DNA of 64,000 bases from the NCBI GenBank assembly GCA_041891055.1, contig CP169074.1, positions 1,664,001 to 1,728,000 on the forward strand. The letters are read 5' to 3'. The position numbers and the translations under genes were made by a program. Source of the DNA: Halorutilales archaeon Cl-col2-1. Its GTDB lineage: Archaea > Halobacteriota > Halobacteria > Halobacteriales > Afararchaeaceae. Below, piece by piece: positions 7,085-25,869 of this stretch. The notes beneath the pieces were generated by a model. It was given only the letters and a program-made list of their open reading frames with translations. It was not told where the DNA came from and made no database searches. Within the stretch, counting starts at the first letter, position 1. Each line of letters starts with the position of its first letter.

Positions 7085-7096
7085 CTCTTAACGACT

Positions 7097-7405
7097 ATGC
7101 AGACTGCTCGCGTACGTCTTTCGGGAACTGAGCCCGACGACTTAGACCAGATTGCCGACGATGTGAAGGAGATAGCCGAGAGAACAGGTGTCAACTTCTC
7201 GGGACCTGTTCCTCTGCCGACGAAGGAACTCGAGATCCCCATACGTAAGAGCCCCGACGGTGAGGGCAACGCGACGTGGGAGCACTGGGAGATGCGCGTC
7301 CACAAACGTCTCATCGACGTCGACGCCGACGAGAGGACTCTCAGACAGCTCATGAGGATACAGGTTCCCGAGGATGTCTCGATCGAGATAGAGCTGGAGA
7401 GTTAA
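7097..7405 (+). CDS. rpsJ: 30S ribosomal protein S10
   Basis: [15 protein letters not shown] and [11 protein letters not shown] motifs; follows EF-1A. Confidence 0.97.
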
Positions 7406-7457
7406 ACCACAAGCCACAAAACATCTCTTAACTTATATAGAGTATAAAGTAGATAGA

Positions 7458-7529
7458 GGGCCGGTAGATCAGTGGTAGATCGCTTCCTTCGCAAGGAAGA
7501 GGCCCGGGGTTCAAATCCCCGCCGGTCCA
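7458..7529 (+). tRNA. tRNA-Ala (anticodon CGC); integration target
   Basis: GGGCCGG...CCGGTCC-A acceptor stem with G3:U70, anticodon arm CTTCC-TTCGCAA-GGAAG, GGTTCAAATCC T-loop. Confidence 0.95.
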
Positions 7530-7668
7530 AAACCTATGTTTTGGAGCATTCGAGAAACGTAGTTTCTCGATACGGTCCATACGAATTCTTACGGATTCCT
7601 CGGGAACACAAAACCACCATACAGCGACGGTTTTACCCCTCGCAAATACCTTCCCGTGAAAGTGAGTC
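7517..7668 (+). repeat. Left att direct repeat (tRNA 3' end + ~139 bp)
   Basis: CCCCGCCGGTCCAAAACCTATG...GTGAAAGTGAGTC matches 25644-25795 with 5 mismatches. Confidence 0.93.
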
Positions 7669-7724
7669 TGACTCGTCTCGGAACGGAGGTCTGCTCTTTC
7701 CGGCTTTTATTTTGAGGAACCGAG

Positions 7725-9710
7725 GTGGTCGGCTTGGGTGGTGAGTCTGTTGGGACTAACATAGAGGCTGACGAGAAGATATACTGTGAGGACTGTAGCC
7801 TACATATCGACGCCGAGATCTGGGAGACACACCTCAAAAACAGACATCCCAGAGAATACGATCCCGAGACGTTCGACCTCAACGACTACATAGACCGCAG
7901 TGGCGGAGACGGGGACAACGAAGAAGACGTCGACTCTGGGGCGCGCGCGACATGCCGTAGCTGCGGAGAGACCTTCGAGACCCTCCAGGAAAGAGACGAA
8001 CACGTAAGAGAAAGCCTGAGCTGTACTCTCGAAGAGGGACAGGAAGCGAGAACACCCGATTCTACAGACCTAATCGAGCCCATCACACACGGTCTCGAAG
8101 CAAAGACGGCGTTTGACCACGGAAGCTTAGACGCATACTTCGGTCTCGTCTCAGCGGTCTACGACCTCAGCGACGAGTACCCCGAGCATAAGTCAGAATC
8201 AGGGAAGAGCCAGACTATCGATGTCGACGGAGACATTAACTTCGAGGCTGTCGGTCGTGGGTTCGAGATTACGGCTATCAAGTACTGGTCGAGTCAGCTA
8301 GACCCGAGCAGTATCGGAAGGATAGACTACGACAGGGTCAACGAGTACTCGATACAGTGTACAGAGGTAGACGGACAGGCTGATATCTCTCTCGTGCTAC
8401 GACCAAGCTGGGAGAAGATGGAGTCTCTCGACGGCGAGAGTATAGTTCCCAACGCTGAGACACCTCGTGGTCTCCGTGTACAGATAAATTCGAGCTATCT
8501 CGAACCCGACGAAGTCCTCCCAGCGGCTCGGTCTGTAGCTAAAGCCGTCGACTTTAACTCCAAGTATCTCCAGAAAAAGGATATTCGAAGAGACCTCTCG
8601 ACGTGGACACAGATAGAGAGGCATGTCAGAATTAGGAGAGAGTACTCGGAGAGGATAGTCGGACACGACGGAAAGCTAACCGAGATCTCGAAGTTCTACG
8701 CGTCGAAAGACGAGAGCGTAGGAGAGTACAAATGGGACAATCAGGACGTTCTGGGGCGGATGACCCGTCTCAGTCTTGGTGAAGATGATCTCAGTGACAT
8801 GGTGGATGTCGCGTATCCCGCGAATATCAAATATTACCATCTCAAGAATCCGAGACACTCCGTCCGAGACGCTATTGACCAACCGAAGGTAGAGGTACAG
8901 ATCAAGGGCGACAGTATACCCTGGGAGAGGATCGACGAGGCTCGTGCAGACGCCGATACTATTCTCACGAATACCCTCCGTTGGTCGGGTATTCCGGTTA
9001 ATCCGACCTCTACGGTCTATGTTGACGACGACGAGTTTACCGTCTCTCGAATGGAGTCGGATGAGGTCGAGTTCTACGTCGACCCGTGTGAGGAGATCGA
9101 AGACGCTCAGGAGGAGACTGCGGTAGGAGTCGTCGGTGTTGCCGACGAGATAGAGTTGGAGGCTCTCGAAGAGATCGTAAACAGACACGGATCGGCTTCA
9201 GTCGGAGAAGTTGCGGAGGCTCTCGACAGATCCGTCAGAAGCGTGTATAGATACGTCTCAGACAGGCTTTCGGCAGTTGTCGACCTCGACCAGGGCGAGC
9301 TCTCGATAAGCTCAGACTACCTCTTCGACAGGTTAGACGACCTCTTGGAGAAGGGAGCCAGCGTCTCGTCCGACATAGCCCAGCAGCTACGCAGTGAAAG
9401 AGCCGCAGCCGCGTCTGACTCGGCGTTAGAACGTTTCGCTACTAGATGGGGTATAGAAGGCAATCTAAAGCGCGACGACGAACTCACGGTTCACCAGGAC
9501 AGGATGACGAGATCCGAGGCTAAGGAGCTTCTGCGATCCGCATACAGTGTCTTGGGAGCACGCCGCGGCTACGACGAGGTACTCAGTATTACGTTTAGAT
9601 TCGCGGACGATCCCGATGACTATCTTACATTCGGTAAGTACGGTGAGAGAACCCAGCTTGTGATTCAGAACGACGACTGCCGCATAACGTCAGAGCTGAG
9701 ACCGAGATAA
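7725..9710 (+). CDS. Putative replication protein of haloarchaeal integrative plasmid/virus type, with N-terminal Zn fingers and C-terminal HTH
   Basis: 661-aa acidic ORF; CEDC..H..H and CRSC..H motifs; HTH-like SVGEVAEALDRSVRSVYRY; first gene inside att. Rep role is inferred. Confidence 0.5.
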   Translation: MVGLGGESVGTNIEADEKIYCEDCSLHIDAEIWETHLKNRHPREYDPETFDLNDYIDRSGGDGDNEEDVDSGARATCRSCGETFETLQERDEHVRESLSCTLEEGQEARTPDSTDLIEPITHGLEAKTAFDHGSLDAYFGLVSAVYDLSDEYPEHKSESGKSQTIDVDGDINFEAVGRGFEITAIKYWSSQLDPSSIGRIDYDRVNEYSIQCTEVDGQADISLVLRPSWEKMESLDGESIVPNAETPRGLRVQINSSYLEPDEVLPAARSVAKAVDFNSKYLQKKDIRRDLSTWTQIERHVRIRREYSERIVGHDGKLTEISKFYASKDESVGEYKWDNQDVLGRMTRLSLGEDDLSDMVDVAYPANIKYYHLKNPRHSVRDAIDQPKVEVQIKGDSIPWERIDEARADADTILTNTLRWSGIPVNPTSTVYVDDDEFTVSRMESDEVEFYVDPCEEIEDAQEETAVGVVGVADEIELEALEEIVNRHGSASVGEVAEALDRSVRSVYRYVSDRLSAVVDLDQGELSISSDYLFDRLDDLLEKGASVSSDIAQQLRSERAAAASDSALERFATRWGIEGNLKRDDELTVHQDRMTRSEAKELLRSAYSVLGARRGYDEVLSITFRFADDPDDYLTFGKYGERTQLVIQNDDCRITSELRPR

Positions 9711-10155
9711 TCCGAGATCGGACAGCCTAAGCTTTACTCAGTTTATGTTTTATTTCTGATATATCCATCTAAGAAACGCCATAGGGCGGTATCTTACTGT
9801 TTTCAGCGACTATACCGCGCGACATGAGTAGCTTCTCGATCTTGTGTGTAACTACGTCTACAGAGCTATGCGACGTCTAGATGTTTCGCCAAAATCTGTC
9901 AATATCCCCTTATATGTGTGCGTAAGCGCGCAAAATCAAAACCCGCCGTAGCCTCTTTTTGTCTAAGTGATCCAGTTGATCCACGGGAAATGAGGGTAGT
10001 TAAAGTAGAGATCATACGCTATTTTAATCGGAGACTTGGGAATAACATACATAGGAACGGCTAAGGATTTATTGCTATCTATTGGAGTTCAAAGTTTGAA
10101 AATATATCGGGGGAAGTGAGAATGTATGTAGTTTAACACTCAGAAACTAGGGTAT

Positions 10156-10247
10156 GTACAAATCCTAATCTAAGGCATTATTACTTATTAGATTTGTATT
10201 ATGCTTGTACTATCCTATTTTCAATCCCAGTTAAGCCTTATTCCCTC
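10156..10247 (-). ncRNA. crRNA-like regulatory RNA (pseudo-repeat, 30-nt guide, pseudo-repeat), CreR/CreA-like
   Basis: 10218-10247 matches the array repeat 22/30; second degenerate repeat ~10156-10187; guide seed matches the cas6 promoter beside a CCT PAM. Confidence 0.75.
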
Positions 10248-10323
10248 ATTTCCATATTTCATCTTTCTGATATATATCATTTATCTTAATCAAATATATC
10301 AAATAGGATACATTTCACCTAAC

Positions 10324-10356
10324 TTTTATTAACAAATCTTATGTACTGTCCTAAGG
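10324..10356 (+). promoter_or_regulatory. Putative cas6 operon promoter (TATA-like TTTTATTAA) with guide target 10342-10353 and PAM 10354-10356
   Basis: TATA about 30 nt upstream of GTG 10358; minus strand reads CCT-TAGGACAGTACA. Confidence 0.65.
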
Positions 10357-10357
10357 G

Positions 10358-11099
10358 GTGTTAAGAAATCAGACTATACATTCGATCAGATAGCGGGAAA
10401 AAACCCCGGTTCCAATTGCCCTGGAACTACCACATGTCTTTCCAGAGTTTCATATACCAAGCTCTGGACAAATACGAGCCGGAGATAGCTACCAAACTAC
10501 ATCAATACCCTCATGCACCACCATTCTCGTTCAGCGAATTCATCCAAACCGGTCCTTTTCAGGCTACAGATGATGGGCTAATGTGTGAGAGCGGATATTG
10601 GATCGTCACGTCTGACGATAAGAGAATCATAGACGCTGTGGCTAACCATGCTCAACATGATAGCAAGCTAACTCTCGGACACACAACAATCCCCGTCACT
10701 GGAGTAGATATTGAGAAGATCCAGGGTAAGGAGAAAGAGAGGTACAAGTCTACGAGTCCGATATACGTAAGTCAAAGAGGAGAAGATGGAGAAGTAGAGG
10801 ATCTTTTCCCAGAAGACGGAATGTGGTACTCTCGTCTGAAGGACAGCGTTAGAGATAGGATTCGTCATGAGAGAACTCTCCCAGATGATTTCCAGTTTAT
10901 CATCGATGAAGTCCATTGGTCGAAGAAAAAACGCCTACGTTCGGGAGATGGATGGCGATCCTGTTCTCGACTAGAGTTAACGATCAGATCCGATCTAGAG
11001 ACGAGTGAGTTCATTCAGCAACAAGGGCTCGGAGAAAAAACTGGGATGGGTTTTGGTAATCTCATGCCCACCAATGAAATCCCGGAGGAGTGGCGATGA
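10358..11099 (+). CDS. cas6: CRISPR-associated endoribonuclease Cas6 (N-terminus apparently frameshifted; intact ORF from TTG 10416)
   Basis: LPWNYH, FSFS and C-terminal GLGEKTGMGFG glycine loop. Confidence 0.9.
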
Positions 11100-13009
11100 G
11101 TATTCAAGCAGATATTGAAAAGTTTGAGGAAGGAAAAGAGAAGAAACTTCTCTTCAAGCTCTCCCAAGATGCATTCGTAAATGAGGGGGCGGTCGAAATG
11201 GCGAGGGGTCTTGGGGACTTAGTGGAGATAGAAAGCAACAAGATACTGATTAACTCAGAGGCTTCGAAATCAGAAGTAGCAGAGCGGGTAGAAGATATAT
11301 TAAGAGAAGGATTATCTCAGACACACCGGAGAACTAACGTAGCTCACCAGATTAACGATACTGTTGATGAGAGAGACGAGTTAGATGATAGCCTGAGAGT
11401 AGGTGCACCAAACACACATTTTCCGATGGATTCTGACGAAGATGAGACGGTGTACGAAAATGATACAGTTAATATTGAAGAGCTAAGAAATGTCGGCATA
11501 GATCCATCGGAGATAGATATAGACGAAGGTGATGAAAAGAGCCTCTATACGCTTTCGCCGACATTCGTAGGAAGACCACAGCCGGGAAGATACGGTTTCC
11601 AAGCCTCCCTCGATAACACTGAGGATTACTTTGATATATTTACGAAATACATAGAAGGCGAATATGAAGGATCAGAGGATGACTACTGTACCAACTGTGG
11701 TTCCAGTGGAATACCAAGCTGGCAGGTGGAGGACGAAGAAGGAAATAAAATTAAACTAGAGCACAGCCAAGCATCCTCAATACTGTTAACTAAGTCGAGT
11801 AATCCGTCTCCTCTTGGTCAGGGGTCACCCAAAAGCAGTTATCAAGGTAGATGTGTTTCGTGTCTTATAGCAGGATTCTATTACACGCTGATCGAGAAAG
11901 CAGTTCGTCTCGTAAGTTTCGATGATGGGGGAGAATACCGTATTTTTACTCCAGTAGGTGACTTTGAGGAGTTACGTAATATACGCGGAGATCTGACTAA
12001 CATCTGGGAAAGCGGAGGTGAAGGAGGAAGAACTATTAATGAACCTACATCGAACAGCAAAGCTCGGCAGCAGAATATAGGATCTACAAGAAGTAGATCC
12101 AAGGGGATACAGATACTCGACTTCTTCAGCGAGGTTCTCAGACAGGGTAATATAGATATTGTAGGAGGAGAATACTCTAAAGAGACGATTCACAGACCCA
12201 CTTCTCTAATAACTTATATTACCTCTCCAATGAAGAGTGGCAACTATGTTAGAGAGATAAAGTCGTTTGAAAGTGTGGATTCGGACAGTTGGATATACGA
12301 AGTTGTCCGTGAGAGAGAGTTAGAACCAGAAGGTCAAGAAGATGAAGATTGGGATGAGAGTTACTGGGCTGTACCCGACGTTTTGTCTTGGTTTGCAAAT
12401 ATATCCCAGAATAGCGAGGAAGTTGGAATAGACGAGAAGGATATGATTGGCTACGGGATAATAGAGAAGGATCTAAAACAGATAGAGAGAGGTCTATTCG
12501 AGCTTCTGAAGAAAGTCGAGAAAGAGAAGGGGGAAATAACTCCCTATATGTTACCCATCGCAAAAACAAGAAACTATTTCGGAGATATCATGAGACAATC
12601 AGCAAGCACTGAGAGTATAGACAGTGAACAGATCGAGAGCATCACGAATGTAGCCTCCAACCTTGGGGGGATGTTCTATGACAGGGATAATATAAGCGTG
12701 CTAATATCCCTCCAGAGCTCGAACACTCCCTCCGAGTTTTTACAAGCATTCGAGAAGGCGTCTATGCAGGCTCAAAAGATGATAACTGACGAAGGTGAAG
12801 GAGGAGAGGATGAGGAGTTCCGAAGAAAGGCAATAAACCGCTGGTCGGGAAAAGAAGACATCGAGACTGTTCTTGAATTAATAACAGATCCAGACAAGTT
12901 TGAGGACGCAAAAAGAATGTTCGTTATACAAGCATCGCTGTCGGCACATTACCAGAATAGTGTAAAGAACTACCAAGAGAGCCAGTCAGATACTGGAGGT
13001 GATCAGTAA
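11090..13009 (+). CDS. cas8: Type I large subunit Cas8 (Cst1/CXXC_CXXC-like) with C-terminal small-subunit domain
   Basis: Located between cas6 and cas7; CTNC and CVSC motifs; helical C-terminus. Confidence 0.8.
   Translation: MAMSIQADIEKFEEGKEKKLLFKLSQDAFVNEGAVEMARGLGDLVEIESNKILINSEASKSEVAERVEDILREGLSQTHRRTNVAHQINDTVDERDELDDSLRVGAPNTHFPMDSDEDETVYENDTVNIEELRNVGIDPSEIDIDEGDEKSLYTLSPTFVGRPQPGRYGFQASLDNTEDYFDIFTKYIEGEYEGSEDDYCTNCGSSGIPSWQVEDEEGNKIKLEHSQASSILLTKSSNPSPLGQGSPKSSYQGRCVSCLIAGFYYTLIEKAVRLVSFDDGGEYRIFTPVGDFEELRNIRGDLTNIWESGGEGGRTINEPTSNSKARQQNIGSTRSRSKGIQILDFFSEVLRQGNIDIVGGEYSKETIHRPTSLITYITSPMKSGNYVREIKSFESVDSDSWIYEVVRERELEPEGQEDEDWDESYWAVPDVLSWFANISQNSEEVGIDEKDMIGYGIIEKDLKQIERGLFELLKKVEKEKGEITPYMLPIAKTRNYFGDIMRQSASTESIDSEQIESITNVASNLGGMFYDRDNISVLISLQSSNTPSEFLQAFEKASMQAQKMITDEGEGGEDEEFRRKAINRWSGKEDIETVLELITDPDKFEDAKRMFVIQASLSAHYQNSVKNYQESQSDTGGDQ
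12590..13009 (+). CDS. cas11: Putative internally translated Cas11 small subunit (139 aa)
   Basis: GGAG SD-like motif 5 nt before in-frame ATG (GGAGATATCATG) at the start of the C-terminal domain. Confidence 0.6.
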   Translation: MRQSASTESIDSEQIESITNVASNLGGMFYDRDNISVLISLQSSNTPSEFLQAFEKASMQAQKMITDEGEGGEDEEFRRKAINRWSGKEDIETVLELITDPDKFEDAKRMFVIQASLSAHYQNSVKNYQESQSDTGGDQ

Positions 13010-13947
13010 TGAAAGCAATAGGTATGAACTACCTGACCTATGTAGACCTCGGGAATCATAACGCAGGAGAAGGAGGAAGTCAATTATCCGACCTCAAAAA
13101 GTACGGAAACAAGCCCTACATCAGTGGACAGGCATACCGACACTCAATCAAAGACGCTCTGAAAGCAATAGTCGATGACTTGAGTACTGTAGACTGCACT
13201 CCGAGGAACGCATGTGGGGACATAGAGAACTGCAAGCTGTGTGACCTATTCGGTTACATGAATACTGATCTAGAACCCGATGACGGAGAACCCAATCCAA
13301 ATAGAGTTTCACCGCTTAGGGTTAGTCCTCTAGTTGGGCAGTATGACATGCCGATAACGACAGATCTCGTCGTCCAATACGATGTAGAAGGCGATAATCG
13401 TATGGCACGCCGGGAAATAGAGGAGAACGTATTCAAGGGAGGGATTGCGCTGGATCTAGATTCTATAGGAAGACGAGAGAATGAGGAAGTCAATACAGAC
13501 AGGGACTACGACGAGCAGTATCATCGTGAGCTTGAAAACGAGATAGACGAAGACGAGAGGAAAGAAAGAGCGAAGGAACTCATAGATGCTGTTCAAAACA
13601 GCACACAGCTAGCAGGTCAGGCTCGCCACATGGCAGATTTCATGCCGGATCTTCTGGTAGTCTCAAGCCAAGACCAGTACAACCAGAGAGTAAGCAATGC
13701 ATTACATGTTGACCCCGAATCCGGCGAACTCAACACAAAATCCTTCGAGAGCGTACTCCAAGACCTCACTAATATGGAGTCTGACGGTGAGGGGAAGGTG
13801 TGGGTCGCTGGAACGTATAACCCCGAAGTAATCTCAAACTGGGATGAAGTGATGGAAACCGCCGAAGAAATTGAGGGAGTGACTATTGTTGATACCGTAA
13901 GTGGATGTTATGAGGCGGTAAAAGAAGAAATCGACTCGGAACTATAG
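13009..13947 (+). CDS. cas7: Cas7 (Cst2/DevR family)
   Basis: N.GE, PYISGQAYRH, CDLFGYM and RVSPLRVS motifs. Confidence 0.9.
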   Translation: MKAIGMNYLTYVDLGNHNAGEGGSQLSDLKKYGNKPYISGQAYRHSIKDALKAIVDDLSTVDCTPRNACGDIENCKLCDLFGYMNTDLEPDDGEPNPNRVSPLRVSPLVGQYDMPITTDLVVQYDVEGDNRMARREIEENVFKGGIALDLDSIGRRENEEVNTDRDYDEQYHRELENEIDEDERKERAKELIDAVQNSTQLAGQARHMADFMPDLLVVSSQDQYNQRVSNALHVDPESGELNTKSFESVLQDLTNMESDGEGKVWVAGTYNPEVISNWDEVMETAEEIEGVTIVDTVSGCYEAVKEEIDSEL

Positions 13948-13951
13948 TATA

Positions 13952-14677
13952 ATGACCCAACAGATCCTCCGAGCTACGCTTGACGTACCTTTCGAGTGTG
14001 CATTTAGAGACCCAGACTCGATGAACGCCTTACCTACATACAGTGTTCCACCAGTTACTACACTCCAAGGAATGCTATATGCTGCACTTGCACGTCCTTC
14101 CCTACTTTTCCAGTCAGGTAGAAGCCGGTATATTCCAAAAGACCTGAGAGATGATGAGGAAGAGTTTCGTAGGGAGGTTCAAGACAAGTGTCAGTTTGGC
14201 ATAAGAGTCATAGAACAAGGGAAAGAGTACAACGGTCTGAAGACTCGTCAGAAGATGGAGGATAAAAGAGGGCAAAATGACGCGAGGTATAAAAGCTATG
14301 TGACAAATGAGGAAACTTTGATCGAGCCCACATTTCGGATTTATATAACTGAAAATGGAGGGGAGGAATACCTAGATATATTCAAGCAAGCTCTTGAAGA
14401 TCCTTCTCGAATGCTGTATTTAGGACGCTCAGATGATATAGTAGATGTATGTGATGTTCATCTCATTGAAGCCGAGAAGGTAAACAAAACCAAGAGTCTG
14501 GACTGTGTCGTCCCAAGTGCTGAAGGAGAGCATCTAGAGATGTTGCCCGTGGAGCCAGATCACAGATCCGGTCGTTCTACAAAGCCTCCAAGAGTCAAGG
14601 CAGTTTCAATAGATGGTGCCGAGGTGGGTAGTTATTATCGTACTTCAGATGGGGAAGAGTTTGTATTTATAACTTGA
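13952..14677 (+). CDS. cas5: Cas5
   Basis: AFR.P, TYSVPPVTTLQGML and LYLGRSDD motifs. Confidence 0.92.
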   Translation: MTQQILRATLDVPFECAFRDPDSMNALPTYSVPPVTTLQGMLYAALARPSLLFQSGRSRYIPKDLRDDEEEFRREVQDKCQFGIRVIEQGKEYNGLKTRQKMEDKRGQNDARYKSYVTNEETLIEPTFRIYITENGGEEYLDIFKQALEDPSRMLYLGRSDDIVDVCDVHLIEAEKVNKTKSLDCVVPSAEGEHLEMLPVEPDHRSGRSTKPPRVKAVSIDGAEVGSYYRTSDGEEFVFIT

Positions 14678-14721
14678 TTCTTTTTTAAGTTTTTCTCAGC
14701 TTCCGTCGAAGAGTTGAACTA

Positions 14722-17238
14722 ATTTCAATCCCACTTAGGCACTATTACGACTCCGAGACGCTCAGAACCTTGACCGAGAACATGAGACAATTTCAATCCC
14801 ACTTAGGCACTATTACGACGAACGAGTCTCTTCGTATCCTCCTATCGATACCATCATTTCAATCCCACTTAGGCACTATTACGACTCCGAGACGCTCAGA
14901 ACCTTGACCGAGAACATGAGACAATTTCAATCCCACTTAGGCACTATTACGACGAACGAGTCTCTTCGTATCCTCCTATCGATACCATCATTTCAATCCC
15001 ACTTAGGCACTATTACGACAGTTCCTCCATGCGTTCGCTCCAAGCCGACTTAGTCGAATTTCAATCCCACTTAGGCACTATTACGACAGTTCCTCCATGC
15101 GTTCGCTCCAAGCCGACTTAGTCGAATTTCAATCCCACTTAGGCACTATTACGACAGTTCCTCCATGCGTTCGCTCCAAGCCGACTTAGTCGAATTTCAA
15201 TCCCACTTAGGCACTATTACGACAGTTCCTCCATGCGTTCGCTCCAAGCCGACTTAGTCGAATTTCAATCCCACTTAGGCACTATTACGACAGTTCCTCC
15301 ATGCGTTCGCTCCAAGCCGACTTAGTCGAATTTCAATCCCACTTAGGCACTATTACGACACGTCTTCGTCAACGAAACTTATTCCGCTGTCGATCAATTT
15401 CAATCCCACTTAGGCACTATTACGACATCATCCACGCGAACCACCAGTGCTTCAGAGGCGTCATTTCAATCCCACTTAGGCACTATTACGACCGTATCTG
15501 ACCTGCCGGACAGGGGCTTTCGAGCACCGAAATTTCAATCCCACTTAGGCACTATTACGACCCGGGCGATGCGCGCGGATATGCGGAGCAGTTAATCCAT
15601 TTCAATCCCACTTAGGCACTATTACGACCAACTGGAACGGACTAATGAGGACTCTTGGAGGACTATTTCAATCCCACTTAGGCACTATTACGACAACTTC
15701 GTAGTCTACATCAAAGTCTTCGTTGTCATCATTTCAATCCCACTTAGGCACTATTACGACAACTTCGTAGTCTACATCAAAGTCTTCGTTGTCATCATTT
15801 CAATCCCACTTAGGCACTATTACGACAACTTCGTAGTCTACATCAAAGTCTTCGTTGTCATCATTTCAATCCCACTTAGGCACTATTACGACTTTGAGAT
15901 TGATCCAGACGATTCTTCTCCCTGGCGTTATTTCAATCCCACTTAGGCACTATTACGACCGTAGCCGCGCCGCTAAACGCTCCCTCGAGGAGACTCGCAT
16001 TTCAATCCCACTTAGGCACTATTACGACGAGAACGAGGTCGCGCGCGAAACGAGAGAGTATCTTGAATTTCAATCCCACTTAGGCACTATTACGACGGCA
16101 AAAAACGGAGTCGCTGAATCGAGCGGTCGAGGATATTTCAATCCCACTTAGGCACTATTACGACACGACTGCGAAACCAGCCCTCGACTGAGGATAGATG
16201 GGATTTCAATCCCACTTAGGCACTATTACGACTATGCCGGCGAGCCAGCTATATTGAGGAGCCGAGTCATTTCAATCCCACTTAGGCACTATTACGACTC
16301 GGAGAAAGCCAACTCTGATGACATGGTGCTCGAAGAATTTCAATCCCACTTAGGCACTATTACGACAATATCTCGAAGAGAAGTCGGGAGTCGATGAATC
16401 ATATTTCAATCCCACTTAGGCACTATTACGACAATACGGCGAGAGACAATCATAGTTCGTTCTTTGACATTTCAATCCCACTTAGGCACTATTACGACCA
16501 GCGACTCCTATATTTCAGGACCGGCACATGGAGAAATTTCAATCCCACTTAGGCACTATTACGACTCAGGACCCGCACATGGAGAAGGGGATAACGCGTT
16601 CATTTCAATCCCACTTAGGCACTATTACGACGGAAGGTAACTGGACAAACATCGATGAGTCTAAATTCCCATTTCAATCCCACTTAGGCACTATTACGAC
16701 TATGAGATCGGATCCTCTGAGATCGGCATCTTCGAGATATTTCAATCCCACTTAGGCACTATTACGACACGATCCCGCCGCGGAGTATGAGGACAGTCTA
16801 TGGCATTTCAATCCCACTTAGGCACTATTACGACTCTCCATCTCGGAATCGGATGTCACCGTCTCTCGCCAATTTCAATCCCACTTAGGCACTATTACGA
16901 CAAGTTCGAGAGCTACACGTTCGACCTCGCAGTCGGTCATTTCAATCCCACTTAGGCACTATTACGACAGAGACTTAATCAAGATCCAGAAACGCGACCG
17001 GCAATATTTCAATCCCACTTAGGCACTATTACGACCCGTTATACTGAACGGTCGTCGAGTCGGTAATCAGTTCATTTCAATCCCACTTAGGCACTATTAC
17101 GACCGCCGGCAGAACTCCCAGTTTCTCGACTATGACTTCATTTCAATCCCACTTAGGCACTATTACGACTGCATATCTTCTTGATCGGCATCTTCGACAC
17201 ACTCTCGCATTTCAATCCCACTTAGGCACTATTACGAC
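14722..17238 (-). CRISPR. CRISPR array: 38 identical 30-bp repeats (sense GTCGTAATAGTGCCTAAGTGGGATTGAAAT), 37 spacers of ~36-39 bp (29 distinct)
   Basis: Counted directly; orientation from the ATTGAAA(T) 3' end and the AT-rich leader on the cas2 side. Confidence 0.98.
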
Positions 17239-17354
17239 CTAGAGTAAGAAATTTATACTAGATAAGTGTTCTTGAAGTATTAGCCTTCAAAGATAGGCTT
17301 TTCTTCGCTAGCCCATGTGGTAATGTAATCTGGTATAAAGGGGCTAGAATCGAA
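17239..17354 (-). promoter_or_regulatory. CRISPR leader
   Basis: AT-rich non-coding segment between the cas2 stop and the first repeat. Confidence 0.7.
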
Positions 17355-17618
17355 TCATAAGAATCGATTATCTTCTAAAGACTCACCAATTGTCTCTGTC
17401 TCGACCCAATCCGGATTAGAAACCTTATACACAATAACTTGATCATCCCCTTGGACAAGCCCATCCAGACCAGACTTTATTTCCTTATACTCGCTCTGAG
17501 TTAATTCCCCATCAAAAACACTATTTTGCCTCCAAGTTAGCCATTTTCGTAAGTAGTCACATAGCTTTTGAGTTCTACTTGCTTTAACATCGTATACTAT
17601 TATAACGTTCATTTTCAT
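17355..17618 (-). CDS. cas2: Cas2
   Basis: VIIVYDV and QNSVFDGEL motifs. Confidence 0.95.
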   Translation of the reverse strand: MKMNVIIVYDVKASRTQKLCDYLRKWLTWRQNSVFDGELTQSEYKEIKSGLDGLVQGDDQVIVYKVSNPDWVETETIGESLEDNRFL

Positions 17619-18595
17619 CTAGCAGTTGTTGGTTGATACTCTTCTATCTCCAGAATATGCTTAGTTATGCGATGGCATTCCTGACGTATCCATCGTCTCC
17701 AAGACATATTACGTCTGATTTGAGGATGTTTCCTAGTTTGCAGTAGACGTTCATCGAAAGCATCAACAAAAGTCGATTTAGCAGATTCATTCATACTACA
17801 GAAGTCCCCTTCCTTCTCGAAATCGTCAGGGGTTATTTTTCCTTGGTTAGCTAGACCTATAATCAGCCTGTCAACTATCAGAGGCTTGAAAATTTCAGCG
17901 ATATCCAGACTTAGACTATACCGTCTCTCGTGTGGCTCGTGGAGAAAACTCACTGTCTGGTCAAGACGTGTATGATATATTTCTGTTACTATAGAACCAT
18001 ATAACATTGAATTACCATAACTCATTAAACTATTAGAAGGATCTTCGGGAGGATTCTTAGAACGACCGTTCAATTCCATTCCATCAGCGATTACGTGGTC
18101 AAAACCATCGTAGTATATCTTACGTGCCTCACCTTCGATTTCCATTAATTCAGGTATAGACTCTGCATTCTCGAGAAGCTGTTTTCTAAGTTCAAGTTCT
18201 TCATCAGCTATACAGCAATTGTTTTCCCCATATCTAAGTAGGGTTAGCCTAAGGTTTTCTATACTACCTTTGACGAATTTTCGAGCTAACTTCAGACGCT
18301 TTTCTTCGTCTAAATAATATTCAGACTGTTTTGTCACACACATCCCACTCAGAATAGGCTTAGGTGGCTGAAAACAGCCTAAATACTTGCCGCCATAACT
18401 AAAGACATGTAATGTTGTGTTGGTTTCTTCAAGTAGATCATGGACTCCAGGGGTTATGGTAATCCCCTCAGTAGCGAATATATCATAGACTTTCTCAATA
18501 GGAATTGGTGTCTTGTCGTTCTCAGTTTCGAAATAAAGAGTGTTCCGTTCCCGAGTTAAGGTTCCCCTTGAATTTATGTAATATCTATCTTTCAT
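17615..18595 (-). CDS. cas1: Cas1 (type I-B)
   Basis: MEIEG, PPEDPSNSLMSYGNSMLY, FLHEP and SLSLDIAEIFKP motifs. Confidence 0.96.
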   Translation of the reverse strand: MKDRYYINSRGTLTRERNTLYFETENDKTPIPIEKVYDIFATEGITITPGVHDLLEETNTTLHVFSYGGKYLGCFQPPKPILSGMCVTKQSEYYLDEEKRLKLARKFVKGSIENLRLTLLRYGENNCCIADEELELRKQLLENAESIPELMEIEGEARKIYYDGFDHVIADGMELNGRSKNPPEDPSNSLMSYGNSMLYGSIVTEIYHTRLDQTVSFLHEPHERRYSLSLDIAEIFKPLIVDRLIIGLANQGKITPDDFEKEGDFCSMNESAKSTFVDAFDERLLQTRKHPQIRRNMSWRRWIRQECHRITKHILEIEEYQPTTAR

Positions 18596-19089
18596 GCAAA
18601 ACAGAACTCCCTCATACTACATTTTTTACAGGCAGTTTTCCACTCCGGATCTGGACAATCCCCCTCGATAATCTCTCGTATGTTTTTAGTCACCTCATCA
18701 TGTCTTTTCTGGATGTCTTCAGACCAATCCATCTCTTTTTTTGTGCTTTCTTCAGGGTATCTTAGAATACCCACAACTTCAGTTTCTTTTTCCGAGTGGA
18801 GTAAATGCATATAATGAATCAGTTGTATTTCATCAGCATCTTGATACGTAGAGGAGCGTTTGACCTCGTTTATCTCTATTTTGTCCCCCTTGCGTATGAA
18901 ATCTATCTGATTATTTCCGATATTTTTTGTATCTTCTCTCTTGAAGCTATCTGAGTCAAGTAATTCCCCAAGCTTCACGTATTCGTTCTCATCTGCATAA
19001 AGAATCCTATAATGGTGGTACCAGAGCTTAGTTTTACATATTGTATAGTAGTGATAGTGCTGTCCAGTAAGCTCTCTTTCAGATATCAT
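18592..19089 (-). CDS. cas4: Cas4
   Basis: N-terminal Cys, EVK, QL..Y and C-terminal CKKCSMREFC Fe-S motif. Confidence 0.95.
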   Translation of the reverse strand: MISERELTGQHYHYYTICKTKLWYHHYRILYADENEYVKLGELLDSDSFKREDTKNIGNNQIDFIRKGDKIEINEVKRSSTYQDADEIQLIHYMHLLHSEKETEVVGILRYPEESTKKEMDWSEDIQKRHDEVTKNIREIIEGDCPDPEWKTACKKCSMREFCFA

Positions 19090-21579
19090 CTATAGTTGTG
19101 TACTAGATCGAATGTCATCTGGTATTCTTCTTACCTCAGTGTCTGGGGGTATTACCCCATACTCATAACTATACTCTATGTTGATCACCTGAGTTCCTTC
19201 AATTTCACCGTATTCATCCTTAAATCTATGGGGAGGATCGAGAGTTATATCATCACTAACTAACCACCACTTGGGTATAGGGACAGTATATTCTCTGAGA
19301 AAAACGCTCAAGTCCTCTTTACACTCATTGTAATAGTCTTCATGTACTCCACATCTACCATTCCTATCGCAATCATGGAATTCTTTCCATAGGTCACTAG
19401 GTAATGGAGACTCCGAATTGTGATGATATTTGGAAGGCAACATAGAGATACGTCGACTGCTATCCTCACGGATATTCAGATCTTCCGATCCTTCTGTCTC
19501 GTCCTCACCCAACCTTCGTAGCTTTCCATAGAGTAGGTCATTCGAAATAGCATTTCCGAACTGAGTTGTGTTCATATTCATCTTACTTAGATCCACTCCT
19601 GTGTACGATTCTTCTACCCACTTCAGGCTGTCTTTAAAGCTATACATGCCAGCATTCTCGAAGACCTTCTCAGTCTGTTCTAAGATCTTCCACTTCTCTT
19701 TTTCCTCAGGACTTTGATCTTTGTAGCCTGCGTAGGGGTACCACGTATCTGTATCTTCATCCGAAATCGGAGAAAAGACTACACAACGATACTTGTGATT
19801 TTGATCATCCTGTTTGAAGCTTGCACACTGATCACAGTTACAGTCCTCCGAGCTGGGTCTATATCCTTCTCTGTGGAGTCTGCCTGCCCTCTGTATTACT
19901 GCGTCGGCAGGTGCTATATCAGTCAGAAGCAAATCCGCTGAGAGATCGAGACTGATCTCACACACCTGTGTGGATACGAGAAACTGTCTTTCATCCGGAT
20001 TCGAATCTATTCCGAATATATCGCGTATCTCCTCTTCCTTATCTTGCCTATGGTCTTGAGTAAATTCGCTACTATAGTAGGTAACATTCTCACCGTCTTC
20101 CTTTAGATCCCAAGCGAGATCTCTAGCCCCAGATACAGTATTTTTGACTATCATCACCTTCTTCGCGTCACTTTCTTCTAGGTACTCTTGAACTTCGGAG
20201 GTGGTGAGTTCAGAGTTTTCTGTAATAACTTCAAATGCTTCTCTCACTCCCTGATCTTCTTCGAGTATCCCTTCACTCCGGACTTTCTCTGAGCCATCGA
20301 AAGCTCGGTCATTCTGTAGTTGTTGAGGCATGGTGGCGGTCATAACATACCAAGGCACACCAAGATCATCGAGTCTTCTTATCGTCGAAAGTATATGACC
20401 CGTGGTATATGCATCGTAGGCATGTATCTCATCAAATATAACTGCACTTCGTAACACGTTGCCCTTTGCTATGCTTGCCGTTTTGTATCCATTCACAAGA
20501 GAAGAGAGTAGATGGTCAACAGTACAGACTGTCACAGGCTTCTGGAACCATTTTCTTGCTTCTTCACCAAGGTTCTCTGATTTCCAGACCTGTTCTCCGG
20601 TACTTTCGAGGAAACTCTTATCCGCACCGTGGTATAGTGCTGCTTTGCTAGCTTCAATTTCCTCGTCTCCCTTGGTCATTGAAAGCAGAAGATTATTCGT
20701 AGTCACCTGGGTTGGCATCGCAAATATCATTCTGTCTGCTTTCTCTTCTTCTATCATCTTCTGCCCCCACTGGAACGCTGTGTGGGTTTTTCCTTCACCA
20801 CATCCGGCAAGCCCCAAGAGATGATCTGTATCAGTCTCTTCTATTTCTTTTTGGAAAGGTCGGAGTGATGAGAATAGATCTATATCGTCGGAATAGAGAG
20901 TCTCAAACTGGGTTTTTGGGTCTCCGGATTCCTTCGAGCTAACATAATGGTCAGCTTGGACTAAAGCGGAGTGTAAAAGAGTGGAGAGAATACCCACTTC
21001 CAGATAATCAGACTCTGATAGCTCCTTCTTTCGGTACTCACGTAACTGGGATTTAAGGCTTTTTTTCAGGTTAGTATCTATTTCAGTTTCCGGAAGACCG
21101 ATACTCCCGACGTTATCCACCATTTTTTGAGTCCCAGATATAGAATAGAGTCTACTGTTTTCTGGTCTCATTTTGCCCATCGTGAATGGGGTATGGTGAT
21201 GAAGAATAGCAAGAGTTAGAGAAACCCCTTGGTTTATAGGAAGACCTTCATCTCTAGCTTTTGCGAATGCGTAAATCCCACTTCTATCGCTATGAGTGGG
21301 TAAATTTGGTTTCTTGTCTTGTCTTACTGCATTTTTAGCTTCAGACTGCCATTCTTCATGAGCTTTCCCGACATCGTGGTAGAGTCCAGCTAACTCCCCG
21401 CAGTCTAGGATGTCACCGAAATCGGTTTCAAGTTCCCTCGCTATTCTTTTAACAGCATGTGAGTTGAGTATAGATCTCGTTTCCTTCGATACTTCTTCTA
21501 AATGAGTTTTAAGAGTTACTTGGTCGGAGATGGACTTCGAACGATCTAGTTTAGCTATGAGAGGCTGCATCCTCTTCAA
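19090..21579 (-). CDS. cas3: Cas3 HD nuclease-helicase
   Basis: HDVGK, HH, ADH, GEGKT, DEIH, TAT and QRAGRLHR motifs; start may be ATG 21570. Confidence 0.96.
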   Translation of the reverse strand: MKRMQPLIAKLDRSKSISDQVTLKTHLEEVSKETRSILNSHAVKRIARELETDFGDILDCGELAGLYHDVGKAHEEWQSEAKNAVRQDKKPNLPTHSDRSGIYAFAKARDEGLPINQGVSLTLAILHHHTPFTMGKMRPENSRLYSISGTQKMVDNVGSIGLPETEIDTNLKKSLKSQLREYRKKELSESDYLEVGILSTLLHSALVQADHYVSSKESGDPKTQFETLYSDDIDLFSSLRPFQKEIEETDTDHLLGLAGCGEGKTHTAFQWGQKMIEEEKADRMIFAMPTQVTTNNLLLSMTKGDEEIEASKAALYHGADKSFLESTGEQVWKSENLGEEARKWFQKPVTVCTVDHLLSSLVNGYKTASIAKGNVLRSAVIFDEIHAYDAYTTGHILSTIRRLDDLGVPWYVMTATMPQQLQNDRAFDGSEKVRSEGILEEDQGVREAFEVITENSELTTSEVQEYLEESDAKKVMIVKNTVSGARDLAWDLKEDGENVTYYSSEFTQDHRQDKEEEIRDIFGIDSNPDERQFLVSTQVCEISLDLSADLLLTDIAPADAVIQRAGRLHREGYRPSSEDCNCDQCASFKQDDQNHKYRCVVFSPISDEDTDTWYPYAGYKDQSPEEKEKWKILEQTEKVFENAGMYSFKDSLKWVEESYTGVDLSKMNMNTTQFGNAISNDLLYGKLRRLGEDETEGSEDLNIREDSSRRISMLPSKYHHNSESPLPSDLWKEFHDCDRNGRCGVHEDYYNECKEDLSVFLREYTVPIPKWWLVSDDITLDPPHRFKDEYGEIEGTQVINIEYSYEYGVIPPDTEVRRIPDDIRSSTQL

Positions 21580-21649
21580 ATATATTAACTATCTGTCTTT
21601 AAATATTCATCTCCGAAAAGGATTATATGGATCAAAGATTGGTTCTATT

Positions 21650-21729
21650 AGTATAATAGTGCCTAGGTTGGATTGAAATACGAGATGCCCGTGCAGATAG
21701 CTCGACAGAAGGTATTGGCTTCTTTTTCC
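21650..21729 (+). ncRNA. Solitary degenerate CRISPR repeat plus ~40-nt spacer-like segment and T-rich end, divergent from cas3
   Basis: 21650-21679 matches the repeat 24/30 with intact GGATTGAAAT; BRE/TATA-like CGAAAAGGATTATAT upstream; TTCTTTTTCC downstream. Confidence 0.65.
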
Positions 21730-21830
21730 TGACTTCTTCTTCAAGCTCGATTAACCCAACCTTTTCTAACTCAGTACATCGTGATAGGTCGTAACAACAA
21801 TTTCTCTGGCTCTATTAGTGATTCTTAACT
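21700..21830 (-). pseudogene. Possible eroded HVO_A0114-like wHTH fragment
   Basis: Minus-strand frame TELEKVGLIELEEEVRKKKP, interrupted upstream; family resemblance recalled, not searched. Confidence 0.3.
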
Positions 21831-21952
21831 AGCCGATTTTCCTGTAAATTCGGGTAGAAGACCTTGAATATACTCCATATAGACATTAATTCACACTCTC
21901 AATCCATGGTACTATCCGGAAGTTCAAAGTAAAAACGGGTATAACGATAACT

Positions 21953-22567: not shown

Positions 22568-22880
22568 GACCCGACAATAGCACGCTCATACTTTCTACTA
22601 CCACCAATATAACTAATTAGCCATTCACGTCTCCTAATTTTGAAAGTACCGAGATCCTTAATTCGTTAATTCCGGACAGCTCAGGGGAATTAGTATTACG
22701 CGATACGAGCGAGGATGTATCCATATGAAGACGTAGATGGATTACTATTAGACAACCTACTTCTGTCGAATAGGAAATATCCCATTTACCCGCCGCTTGA
22801 TGGCATATTTCTAAAACCGCTGTAAGGCGTTGGGTTAATGGACAAGTTAAGTATCTTGAGTACGTGTATAGATTTGTAAA

Positions 22881-23216: not shown

Positions 23217-23239
23217 AACGACGGGAAGAACTCCTCCTA

Positions 23240-25795: not shown

Positions 25796-25869
25796 CGAAT
25801 AATACAGGGACTGAATGTGAGTAAATAAGACAAAAGACTCTATACACAGTTATGCCAGAGACAGAGGAT

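What the first reader, a model, noticed from the sequence alone, without database searches (positions are those of the whole stretch)
10156..10356. Hidden crRNA-like mini-unit whose guide points at the cas6 promoter (RNA-guided Cascade autoregulation on a mobile element)
Seen: on the minus strand, divergent from cas6, there is a degenerate repeat (10218-10247, 22/30 identical, handle ATTGAAAA), a 30-nt guide TAGGATAGTACAAGC... (10188-10217) and a second, more eroded repeat (~10156-10187). Guide positions 1-12 match 10342-10353 (minus TAGGACAGTACA) except position 6. The site has a 5' CCT PAM and lies between the TATA box (10324-10332) and the cas6 GTG (10358). Established: every sixth crRNA base is flipped out in type I Cascade, and short seed pairing gives repression without cleavage in CreA/CreR RNAs. 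Inference: Cascade represses its own cas6-8-7-5 operon. Array finders would miss this unit.
Basis: partly seen in the sequence, partly recalled or inferred. Interest (0 to 1): 0.88.

Follow-up and report, generated by a model that had tools for sequence, protein, structure and literature searches.

The report
CreR-like mini-CRISPR facing cas6 promoter
A decayed one-spacer CRISPR unit sits next to the cas6 gene of a type I-B system, and its guide matches that gene's own promoter region, which fits an already described kind of self-regulating CRISPR RNA rather than a new one.

Summary
On the minus strand there is a degenerate repeat (10218-10247, 22/30), a 30-nt guide (10188-10217) and a second eroded repeat (10156-10187). 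Guide bases 1-12 match 10342-10353 except base 6, next to a CCT flank. In 20,000 dinucleotide shuffles of the region, an equal or longer 5'-anchored match appeared 7 times.

One detail is wrong. GTG 10358 is out of frame and lies within a Shine-Dalgarno-like GGGGTG. By homology cas6 starts at ATC 10368. The target still lies between the TATA-like box and the start.

Best reading (about 0.6): a CreR-type Cas-regulating mini-array that guides Cascade to repress the cas6-cas8-cas7-cas5 operon. This kind is published, including type I-B mini-arrays beside cas6 that target its promoter (Liu 2023; Shmakov 2023). It is therefore a new member of a known kind.

Still open:
- The PAM is only indirectly supported: CCC and CCG inferred from spacers, CCT at the target.
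- No RNA data exist.
- None of 13 related cas6 loci has the unit.
- A 96%-identical metagenomic relative differs in exactly this upstream segment.

The locus lies on an 18-kb island integrated at tRNA-Ala.

The parts
10218..10247 (-). PsiR1: degenerate repeat, 22/30 identical to the array repeat. The 3' 12 nt are 11/12 identical, and the predicted 8-nt 5' handle ATTGAAAA is 10225->10218.
   Evidence: Genome-wide mismatch scan; the repeat finder family D5
10188..10217 (-). PsiS: 30-nt guide. Its G+C content (7 of 30) was counted by eye from the guide printed. Array spacers are 36-39 nt.
10156..10187 (-). PsiR2: eroded second repeat with a 2-nt insertion. The 5' part and the hairpin are kept; the 3' handle part is eroded.
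   Evidence: Local alignment score 28.0 against a background 99th percentile of 23.5. MFE -5.0 kcal/mol against -3.9 for the array repeat.
10269..10278 (-). TATA-like GATATATATC, 22-31 nt upstream of PsiR1. Possible promoter of the mini-unit (inference only).
   Evidence: Sequence reading. TTTCTGATATAT at 10264 has one other copy in the genome, at 9753.
10342..10353 (-). Predicted target (protospacer). It equals guide bases 1-12 except base 6.
10354..10356 (-). 5' flank CCT at the PAM position. The PAM of this system is not known; CCC and CCG were inferred from spacers.
10324..10332 (+). TATA-like box TTTTATTAA, presumed cas6 promoter. The TSS is not mapped.
   Evidence: The same CTTTTATTA lies at the same distance in the loose end of a 96%-identical metagenomic contig.
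10355..10360 (+). Shine-Dalgarno-like GGGGTG, 7 nt before the cas6 start.
10368..11099 (+). cas6, 243 codons, with ATC as start by homology
   Evidence: Cas6b profiles align from residue 2-3.
11090..14677 (+). Rest of the effector operon, with ORFs overlapping or 4 nt apart: large subunit in the Cas8b position (11090-13009, no HMM hit), cas7 (13009-13947), cas5 (13952-14677).
14722..17239 (-). CRISPR array with 38 identical 30-nt repeats and 37 spacers. It is the source of the competing crRNAs. The leader lies at about 17240-17354.
17355..21571 (-). cas2, cas1, cas4 and cas3 (adaptation and nuclease genes)

Best explanation
The unit is a CreR-type regulatory mini-CRISPR (PsiR1-PsiS-PsiR2) of the window's type I-B system.

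Proposed mechanism, all inferred:
1. The unit is transcribed on the minus strand, away from cas6.
2. Cas6 cuts it into a crRNA-like RNA of about 62 nt. This is the 8-nt handle starting at 10225, the 30-nt guide, and the 5' part of PsiR2.
3. The RNA is loaded into Cascade.
4. Its first 12 guide bases pair with the + strand at 10342-10353, next to a CCT flank. Base 6, which type I Cascade flips out, is the only mismatch.
5. Pairing stops after base 12, so Cascade would bind without licensing Cas3 cleavage. It would sit between the TATA-like box (10324-10332) and the SD and ATC start (10355-10370), blocking initiation of the cas6-cas8-cas7-cas5 operon.

The result would be negative feedback that is relieved when array crRNAs, or anti-CRISPRs, draw Cas proteins away.

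Shown here: the anatomy, the statistical excess of the seed match, and the position of the target. Inferred: transcription, processing, PAM competence and repression.
For: - The repeat-likeness is real. This is the only 8-mismatch copy in 4.13 Mb of both strands, with nothing at 7, 9 or 10 mismatches.
- The decay is asymmetric, as described for CreA/CreR. PsiR1 keeps 11 of its last 12 nt, which include the handle. PsiR2 keeps 19/22 of its 5' part and a hairpin (-5.0 against -3.9 kcal/mol).
- The seed match is 11/12 from guide base 1, with the mismatch at base 6. An equal or longer match appeared in 7 of 20,000 shuffles. The pattern occurs 3 times in the window against 0.02 expected. The rest of the guide is at random similarity (17/30), as expected for regulation without cleavage.
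- The target lies 10-21 nt after the TATA-like box and directly before the SD and start of the first gene of the operon.
- This is the only cas1, cas7 and cas3 locus in the genome.
- The unit lacks similarity to the main array's leader (score 15.0 against a shuffle mean of 18.7), as Shmakov et al. note for mini-arrays.
- The flank CCT shares CC with two PAM inferences from the array. Spacer 10 contains the 15 nt upstream of spacer 11's protospacer, giving CCC. Spacer 8 is 15-nt periodic with CCG before each unit, and a homologous spacer of the C2 array shows G at -1.
- A CCN/YCN PAM is documented for another type I-B system (PMC8406132, passages read).
- Published precedent: repeat-like sequences are enriched next to cas6 in I-B, and mini-array targets fall in the cas6 promoter (PMC10120712, sections 21-22).
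Against: - No transcript data could be obtained. The run search listed no RNA holder, so expression and processing are untested either way.
- The PAM is not established. No exact protospacer was found for any spacer. The only flanks seen in diverged homologues of spacer 27 were ACC, GGC, GGA, GGC and CCC.
- The PsiR1 hairpin is weakened (MFE 0.0) and the last handle base differs, so Cas6 cutting and Cascade loading are uncertain.
- The unit is not conserved. None of 13 other loci of this Cas6 clade (41-62% identity) has a handle-bearing mini-unit in the 450 nt upstream of cas6 or a guide/promoter pair. Three of them have full arrays there instead.
- In a metagenomic contig 96% identical over 10351-10700, the sequence upstream of 10351 is not alignable at 80% likeness. 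Its target-equivalent differs at 7 of 12 positions. That could mean covariation or no constraint.
- A second seed match at 8719-8730 (flank GCG) and a gapped third copy inside PsiR2 are not explained by this model.
- The TSS is only predicted.
Confidence: 0.6

Rival explanations
1. The unit is a decayed relic of a second CRISPR array that once stood upstream of, and divergent from, cas6. It is no longer expressed or processed. The seed match to the promoter is then a leftover of an old self-derived spacer, a small local duplication, or chance, and has no regulatory effect.
For: - Relatives have full arrays at this very place. L002 and L003 have arrays in the same orientation, and L005 has a co-directional array with degenerating end repeats.
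- A second solitary repeat (21650-21679) with a spacer-like flank of ordinary spacer composition, no second repeat and no local target shows that relics exist in this locus.
- Both repeats of the unit are heavily mutated, while all 38 array repeats are identical.
- The PsiR1 hairpin is lost in the MFE fold.
- The unit is absent from 13 related loci and from the contigs of a 96% relative.
- 12-mer pairs with at most 1 mismatch are not rare in this AT-rich 724-nt spacer region (mean 2.0 per shuffle).
Against: - The match is in exact register with guide base 1, and its one mismatch is base 6. An equal or longer match appeared in 7 of 20,000 shuffles.
- Identity is confined to the seed (11/12 against 6/18 beyond). 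That is not what uniform decay of a self-derived spacer gives.
- The handle and the PsiR2 hairpin are the best-kept parts.
- If the RNA is made at all, a seed plus a permissive flank would bind Cascade.
Confidence: 0.25
2. TAGGA-N-AGTACA is a protein-binding or other DNA motif of the island, for example an operator for one of its HTH proteins. It occurs several times, one copy happens to lie in the guide, and the link to Cascade is coincidental.
For: - There are three ungapped copies in the window against 0.02 expected. One is at 8719-8730 on the + strand inside the DUF7845 ORF, with flank GCG.
- A gapped fourth copy, TAGGATTTGTACA, lies at the 3' end of PsiR2 (10168->10156).
- An HTH-domain ORF lies on the island at 23240-24154.
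Against: - The motif has no dyad symmetry.
- One copy starts exactly at guide base 1.
- The variable base is exactly the one that Cascade ignores.
- No regulator has been linked to the motif.
- The copy at 8719 lies mid-ORF, where no promoter is expected (the domain spans residues 117-440).
Confidence: 0.07
3. The unit is the antitoxin half (CreA) of a CreTA/CrePA-like addiction module. It would keep a toxin gene silent and so stabilise the CRISPR island.
For: - The unit has the same anatomy as CreA.
- It lies on a mobile island, where addiction would pay.
- There are 445 nt of unassigned sequence (9711-10155) beside it. That stretch includes a 4-codon ATG mini-ORF at 10123-10137 after a G-rich stretch.
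Against: - The only promoter-proximal seed match drives cas6 itself.
- No seed match of 6 or more lies in 9711-10155.
- No strong-SD ORF with tandem rare codons was seen, which is the feature described for CreT.
- The out-of-frame GTG mini-ORF at 10358 is simply the SD region.
Confidence: 0.05

Closest known systems
CreR (Cas-regulating RNA) mini-CRISPRs of type I and V-A systems (Liu et al., bioRxiv 10.1101/2023.03.10.532045; abstract and sections 3, 5, 8, 37 read)
   Same: - It is a degenerate PsiR1-PsiS-PsiR2 unit next to the cas genes.
- PsiR1 keeps the 5'-handle bases and PsiR2 the 3'-handle part.
- The guide is only partly complementary, from its 5' end, to a site at the promoter of the effector operon.
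- No toxin is evident.
   Different: - Nothing has been tested experimentally here.
- The PAM is not known.
- The tested Salmonella enterica I-E case has 15 consecutive matching bases about 140 bp upstream of casA. Here there are 11 of 12, directly between the TATA-like box and the SD.
- The regulated first gene is cas6, so the enzyme that matures the RNA would be inside the loop.
Type I-B regulatory mini-arrays beside cas6 predicted by Shmakov et al. 2023 (PMC10120712; abstract and sections 21, 22 read)
   Same: - The subtype and the neighbourhood match. Repeat-like sequences are enriched next to cas6 in I-B, and partial matches of 10 bp or more fall in the cas6 promoter.
- The seed is adjacent to the better-kept repeat.
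- Mismatches at the sixth position are noted there too.
- Solitary repeat units also occur.
   Different: - Their pipeline required conservation of the standalone repeat in closely related loci, which could not be shown here.
- Whether this locus is in their supplementary lists could not be checked, because supplements are closed.
CreA of the CreTA module of Haloarcula hispanica type I-B (as described)
   Same: It is a haloarchaeal type I-B, Cas6-processed crRNA-like RNA with limited complementarity to promoter DNA, and it also represses cas genes.
   Different: - There the module lies between cas6 and cas8.
- There it represses creT and Pcas8 but not cas6.
- There it is coupled to an RNA toxin.
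- Here it lies upstream of cas6 and no toxin was found.
Degenerate terminal repeats and relic arrays
   Same: The repeats are mutated, and relatives carry full arrays at the same place.
   Different: A relic predicts neither the in-register seed match to the adjacent promoter nor the selective retention of the handle and the hairpin.

Membership tests
CreR / regulatory mini-array | Degenerate mini-CRISPR (two repeat-like sequences around one spacer-like sequence) inside or beside a cas locus | tested here: met
   PsiR1 has 8 mismatches and is unique at that level in the genome. PsiR2 scores 28.0 against a background 99th percentile of 23.5. The unit lies 121 nt from the cas6 start.
CreR / regulatory mini-array | PsiR1 keeps the bases of the 5' handle; PsiR2 keeps the part giving the 3' handle | tested here: met
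   The handle is 7/8 identical and the last 12 nt are 11/12. The PsiR2 5' part is 19/22 identical, its hairpin is kept, and its own handle part is eroded.
CreR / regulatory mini-array | Partial complementarity of guide to target, anchored at the 5' seed (10 nt or more), not full-length | tested here: met
   11/12 from base 1 with the mismatch at base 6, and 17/30 overall. An equal or longer match appeared in 7 of 20,000 shuffles.
CreR / regulatory mini-array | Target flanked by the system's PAM | tested here: inconclusive
   The flank is CCT. The system's PAM is unknown. Indirect inferences give CCC (overlap of spacers 10 and 11) and CCG (periodic spacer 8 plus a C2 spacer). No exact protospacer was found.
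CreR / regulatory mini-array | Target within or next to the promoter of the effector cas operon | tested here: met
   The target lies between the TATA-like 10324-10332 and the SD 10355-10360 and start 10368 of cas6, the first gene of cas6-8-7-5. The promoter and TSS are predicted, not mapped.
CreR / regulatory mini-array | RNA is expressed, matured by Cas6, loaded into the effector, and represses the promoter | not testable with these tools
   No RNA run is listed for this DNA.
CreR / regulatory mini-array | Standalone repeat conserved in closely related loci (criterion of Shmakov et al.) | tested here: not met
   0 of 13 other Cas6-clade loci (41-62% identity) have it. Contigs of a 96% relative do not align across 10008-10331. 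The closer homologues P0002-P0004 (70-73%) could not be fetched.
CreTA (CreA antitoxin with CreT RNA toxin) | A toxin gene with a very strong ribosome-binding site and rare codons under the targeted promoter | tested here: not met
   The targeted promoter drives cas6. There is no other seed match of 6 or more in 9711-10155 and no such mini-gene was seen. Features are as described.
Canonical CRISPR array | Near-identical repeats, spacers of the system's length, and a leader that supports acquisition | tested here: not met
   The repeats are 22/30 and about 19/22 identical. The spacer is 30 nt against 36-39 nt in the array. There is no similarity to the main leader.
Type I-B CRISPR-Cas | cas6, large subunit, cas7, cas5, cas3, cas4, cas1 and cas2 present, with I-B-specific profiles | tested here: met
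   Cas7 matches TIGR02585, Cas5b matches TIGR01895/02592, Cas1b matches TIGR03641 (366 bits, over the cut-off), and Cas3, Cas4, Cas2 and Cas6 are present. The large subunit has no HMM hit in NCBIfam, Pfam or PADLOC.

The most novel reading that the evidence does not exclude
The unit may be more than a plain CreR. It could be an exchangeable guide-plus-target cassette of a mobile CRISPR island. Between near-identical islands, the roughly 360-nt segment holding the guide and the protospacer is replaced while the TATA box, the SD and cas6 stay in place. The same guide also matches, again with only base 6 differing, a site inside the island's DUF7845 gene (8719-8730). Cascade would then control both its own operon and a backbone gene of the element. 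Control would be layered on a conserved weak AUC/AUU start codon of cas6.
Probability: 0.1. Interest if true: 0.7.

Novelty: new member of a known kind. Interest (0 to 1): 0.38.

Why it matters
If it works as proposed, this is one more natural example of Cascade autoregulation by a degenerate crRNA, here in a divergent haloarchaeal type I-B system carried on an integrative island. The loop would include cas6, the enzyme that matures the regulator itself.

It offers a compact test case, with about 200 nt holding the guide, both promoters and the target. It would suit studies of how little pairing and which PAM suffice for binding without cleavage in an archaeal system.

It does not open a new question, because the principle and the I-B/cas6 arrangement are already in print. 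The side observation of a conserved AUY start codon behind a strong SD in this cas6 clade may be the less expected point.

Tried and rejected
- RNA evidence: the look-up of sequencing runs listed no RNA holder, only 3 small-share DNA metagenome runs and 2 runs of the same study. Nothing can be said on expression.
- Relatives by single protein: the genome-contig scan found no relative. None of 60 relatives in the order has this Cas6.
- Relatives by alignment A1: this gave 9 genome loci and 12 metagenome loci. Of these, 14 are of the haloarchaeal clade, and L006 and L016 are the same sequence. None was closer than 62% identity.
- Other collections: viral contigs gave none. The repeat was not found in viral contigs. 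A DNA search with 9998-10440 in 400 genomes of the order gave only the known Natronococcus locus again and one 37-nt AT-rich hit.
- PAM from protospacers: the array had no match in phages (near and distant modes) or in plasmids.
- PAM from the own genome: only short chance hits turned up, plus one homologous spacer in the C2 array.
- PAM from 400 genomes of the order: only 23-30 of 36-38 matches to conserved genes, whose flanks are uninformative.
- PAM from viral contigs: four exact or near-exact pattern scans found nothing.
- MITE idea: the 11-13-nt inverted repeat at 9986(+)/10243(-) suggested a small transposable cassette. The module has no other copy in the genome, and the 11-mer occurs 4 more times elsewhere. 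The idea was dropped.
- Multi-target idea for the solitary repeat's guide: its first 12 nt occur 6 more times in the genome. However, 7.4% of all genome positions have 12-mers that occur at least 7 times, and the flanks differ. The idea was dropped.
- Leader homology between the mini-unit and the main array: none.
- Rfam: nothing but the tRNA in 7000-24500.
- Literature on a non-AUG cas6 start: 0 papers (terms 'cas6', 'AUU start codon', 'non-AUG', 'haloarchaea', at least 3 of 4).
- Supplementary files of the two key papers are closed. They may list this locus.
Full report
CONTEXT

The window is G000:C1:1664001-1728000 of a 2.06-Mb, four-contig genome. Around the finding lies a complete type I-B CRISPR-Cas locus:
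- cas6;
- a 639-aa ORF in the Cas8b position, with no HMM hit in NCBIfam, Pfam or PADLOC;
- cas7 (TIGR02585) and cas5b, on the + strand;
- a CRISPR array at 14722-17239 with 38 identical 30-nt repeats and 37 spacers of 36-39 nt;
- cas2, cas1b (TIGR03641, 366 bits), cas4 and cas3 on the minus strand.

The array is read on the minus strand. This rests on the 3' end of its repeat, GGGATTGAAAT, which resembles the handle-giving end of haloarchaeal type I-B repeats (a recalled resemblance). It also rests on the AT-rich leader next to cas2. This is the only cas1, cas7 and cas3 locus in the genome.

THE OBSERVATION

I scanned both strands of the genome with the 30-nt repeat, allowing up to 11 mismatches. 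The result was 38 exact copies, one with 6 mismatches (21650-21679, + strand), one with 8 mismatches (10218-10247, minus strand, the finding), none at 1-5, 7, 9 or 10, and 13 at 11. The repeat-likeness is therefore not chance.

Seven of the eight mismatches of PsiR1 lie in its first 18 nt. Its last 12 nt are 11/12 identical, so the 8-nt handle is ATTGAAAA against ATTGAAAT in the array.

Downstream of a 30-nt guide (10188-10217), a second repeat-like stretch (10156-10187) aligns to repeat positions 4-25. It shows 19 matches, 3 mismatches and a 2-nt insertion, with score 28.0. For 3000 random 81-nt windows of the island the mean was 14.4 and the 99th percentile 23.5.

In single-sequence folds the array repeat forms a small hairpin (-3.9 kcal/mol). 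PsiR2 keeps one (-5.0) and PsiR1 does not (0.0). This pattern, with the handle kept in PsiR1 and the 3'-handle part kept in PsiR2, is what Liu et al. describe for CreA and CreR.

THE MATCH

Guide bases 1-12 (TAGGATAGTACA) equal the minus strand at 10353->10342 (TAGGACAGTACA) except base 6. The three bases 5' of the site are CCT. Beyond base 12 the identity is at random level (17/30 in all).

The chance of this match was assessed in three ways:
- TAGGANAGTACA occurs three times in the window against 0.02 expected from 100 shuffles.
- It has three non-self copies in the genome.
- The number of consecutive paired positions from base 1 (every sixth ignored) reached the observed 10 in 7 of 20,000 dinucleotide shuffles of 10248-10463.

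As a caution, unanchored 12-mer pairs with at most one mismatch are common in this AT-rich 724-nt region (mean 2.0 per shuffle). The register with guide base 1 and the position of the mismatch carry the weight.

WHERE cas6 STARTS

Thirteen homologues share the N-terminus M/I-R-L-Y-I-x-A-D-S-G-x-x-P-R-F-x-L-P-W-N-Y-H. In the window this reads from ATC 10368, which aligns with the Met of P0023, P0036 and P0037.

A stop (10362-10364) lies one codon upstream, and the first ATG/GTG/TTG is 16 codons downstream. Cas6b profiles align from residue 2-3 of this longer protein. GGGGTG (10355-10360) sits 7 nt before the ATC and resembles the GGAGGTG found at the same place in relatives.

The target (10342-10353) and its flank (10354-10356) therefore lie between the TATA-like TTTTATTAA (10324-10332) and the SD and start. 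The ORFs cas6/cas8, cas8/cas7 and cas7/cas5 overlap or are 4 nt apart. One promoter probably serves all four genes; this is an inference.

THE PAM

No exact protospacer was found for any spacer in any of these searches:
- phages;
- plasmids;
- the own genome;
- 400 genomes of the order, which gave only 23-30 of 36-38 matches to conserved genes;
- viral contigs.

Two indirect clues exist. First, spacers 10 and 11 overlap by 21 nt with one difference. Spacer 10 therefore shows the 15 nt upstream of spacer 11's protospacer, and the three bases before it are CCC. Second, spacer 8 is a 15-nt periodic sequence in which each unit is preceded by CCG. A homologous spacer in an orphan array on contig C2 shows G at position -1.

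Together with CCT at the target, this fits a CCN PAM. A type I-B system is documented to use CCN/YCN (C. difficile, PMC8406132, passages read). This is weak evidence, and I score the PAM test as inconclusive.

RELATIVES

The Cas6 of this locus has 37 database homologues. The closest (70-73%) come from metagenomes that I could not fetch. In the 13 fetched loci of the clade (41-62% identity):
- none has a handle-bearing mini-unit within 450 nt upstream of cas6;
- none has a handle-adjacent guide that matches its own cas6 promoter;
- three have full arrays at that place, two of them (L002, L003) in the same divergent orientation.

The mini-unit is thus plausibly what remains of such an array. Its upstream sequence shows no similarity to the main leader.

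Laying contigs of four metagenome runs on 9900-10700 gave three observations:
- One 696-nt contig (run X1) is 96% identical from 10351 to 10700. Its 41 nt upstream do not align at 80% likeness. The 30 letters shown keep CTTTTATTA at the same distance but differ at 7 of the 12 target positions.
- A separate 297-nt X1 contig follows the window only up to 9990, with 4 differences in 91 nt.
- Contigs of X2 and X3 follow the window up to 9997 without a difference, and then differ.

The roughly 360 nt that hold the unit and the protospacer are therefore a variable segment between otherwise near-identical elements. Without the relative's guide, this can be read as co-replacement or as lack of constraint.

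COMPARISON WITH WHAT IS KNOWN

Liu et al. (bioRxiv 10.1101/2023.03.10.532045; abstract and sections 3, 5, 8, 37 read) showed that degenerate mini-CRISPRs (CreA, CreR) guide type I-B, I-E and V-A effectors to repress their own promoters through partial complementarity.

Shmakov et al. (PMC10120712; abstract and sections 21, 22 read) report the following:
- repeat-like sequences are enriched next to cas6 in type I-B (27%);
- mini-arrays have a well-kept first repeat and a degraded second repeat;
- partial seed matches fall in the cas6 promoter for I-B;
- mismatches at the sixth position are tolerated;
- solitary repeat units also occur.

The finding matches this description feature by feature, so it is a new member of a known kind. 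It differs from the H. hispanica CreTA case, where the module lies between cas6 and cas8, spares cas6 and is coupled to an RNA toxin. I found no toxin candidate here.

VERDICT

The anatomy is real, and the seed match is unlikely to be chance. The most likely function is CreR-type autorepression of the cas6-8-7-5 operon (0.6). A non-functional relic is the main rival (0.25). A repeated DNA motif with another role is third (0.07), kept alive by the extra copy at 8719-8730 and the gapped copy in PsiR2. A CreTA-like addiction module is last (0.05). Expression, processing, PAM competence and repression are all untested.

The 'mobile element' part of the title is supported:
- tRNA-Ala(CGC) lies at 7458-7529.
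- A 158-nt direct repeat (95% identical) starts in its 3' end, at 7517-7674 and 25644-25801.
- A tyrosine-recombinase gene lies at 24587-25603.
- G+C is 39-47% in 10-24 kb against 52-61% in most 1-kb windows outside the island.

Noticed in passing
window 21650-21679 (+), 70-80 nt upstream of and divergent from cas3: There is a solitary repeat unit with 24/30 identity to the array repeat and a perfect handle ATTGAAAT. It is followed by a spacer-like sequence of ordinary spacer composition and a T-run near 21722. It has no second repeat (alignment score 14.5, at background level) and no seed match near the cas3 promoter. It is probably the stump of a lost array.
   Followed up: partly
window 10355-10370; loci L002, L003, L004, L011-L014 at the aligned cas6 start: In the window and 7 of the 13 other clade loci compared (8 of 14 with the window), cas6 has ATT or ATC at the position where the other 6 have ATG (in L015 one codon upstream). 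The ATT/ATC codon lies 6-9 nt behind a strong SD-like GGAGGTG, GAGGTG or GGGGTG. In 6 of these 8 loci an in-frame stop lies 0-4 codons upstream. In 5 of them one search lists no canonical start before codon +16 to +24; for the sixth, L004, the scan was one codon out of register, and the stop directly before its ATT was read. The ATG loci lack the SD-like motif. This looks like a conserved weak non-AUG start for cas6. I found no paper on it.
   Followed up: partly
window 7458-7674 and 25644-25801: The whole CRISPR-Cas locus lies on an island of about 18.1 kb integrated at tRNA-Ala(CGC). The island is bounded by 158-nt direct repeats (95% identical) that start in the tRNA 3' end. A tyrosine recombinase lies at 24587-25603, and a second, shorter integrase-family ORF lies at 21953-22567. 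G+C drops to 39-47% in 10-24 kb.
   Followed up: yes
window 8719-8730 (+), inside the DUF7845 ORF 7725-9710: There is a second copy of the guide's seed. It matches 12 of the first 13 bases, again with only base 6 differing, and has flank GCG. Only 0.02 copies of the 12-nt pattern are expected per window. It could be chance, a second target, or a motif with another role.
   Followed up: partly
window 10156-10168 (-), 9986-9996 (+) / 10243-10253 (-), 9753-9764 and 10264-10275 (+): Three further small repeats surround the unit. (a) A gapped copy of the seed motif lies at the 3' end of PsiR2. (b) An 11-13-nt inverted repeat brackets the unit, and its left copy coincides with the point where contigs of runs X1-X3 stop matching. 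(c) A 12-nt direct repeat containing a TATA-like element is unique to these two places in the genome.
   Followed up: partly
window 14752-15329 and 15695-15862 (array): The array holds internal duplications. One spacer is present 5 times in tandem, another 3 times, and a two-spacer block twice. Spacers 10 and 11 overlap by 21 nt on the same strand with one difference, as expected from primed acquisition after escape.
   Followed up: partly
genome contig C2:99526-101624 and C2:22980-23609; C1:1463957-1464944: There is an orphan array of 32 repeats of a different type on C2, and no second cas1, cas7 or cas3 in the genome. The resemblance of its repeat to the classical haloarchaeal type is recalled, not tested. 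One of its spacers is homologous to spacer 8 of the window's array. A second array-like run of 9 palindromic repeats lies on C2, and a 12-copy tandem repeat of about 82 nt lies on C1.
   Followed up: partly
window 11090-13009 (+): The 639-aa ORF in the Cas8b position matches no model in NCBIfam, Pfam or PADLOC. The PAM-reading subunit of this system is therefore a divergent one.
   Followed up: no
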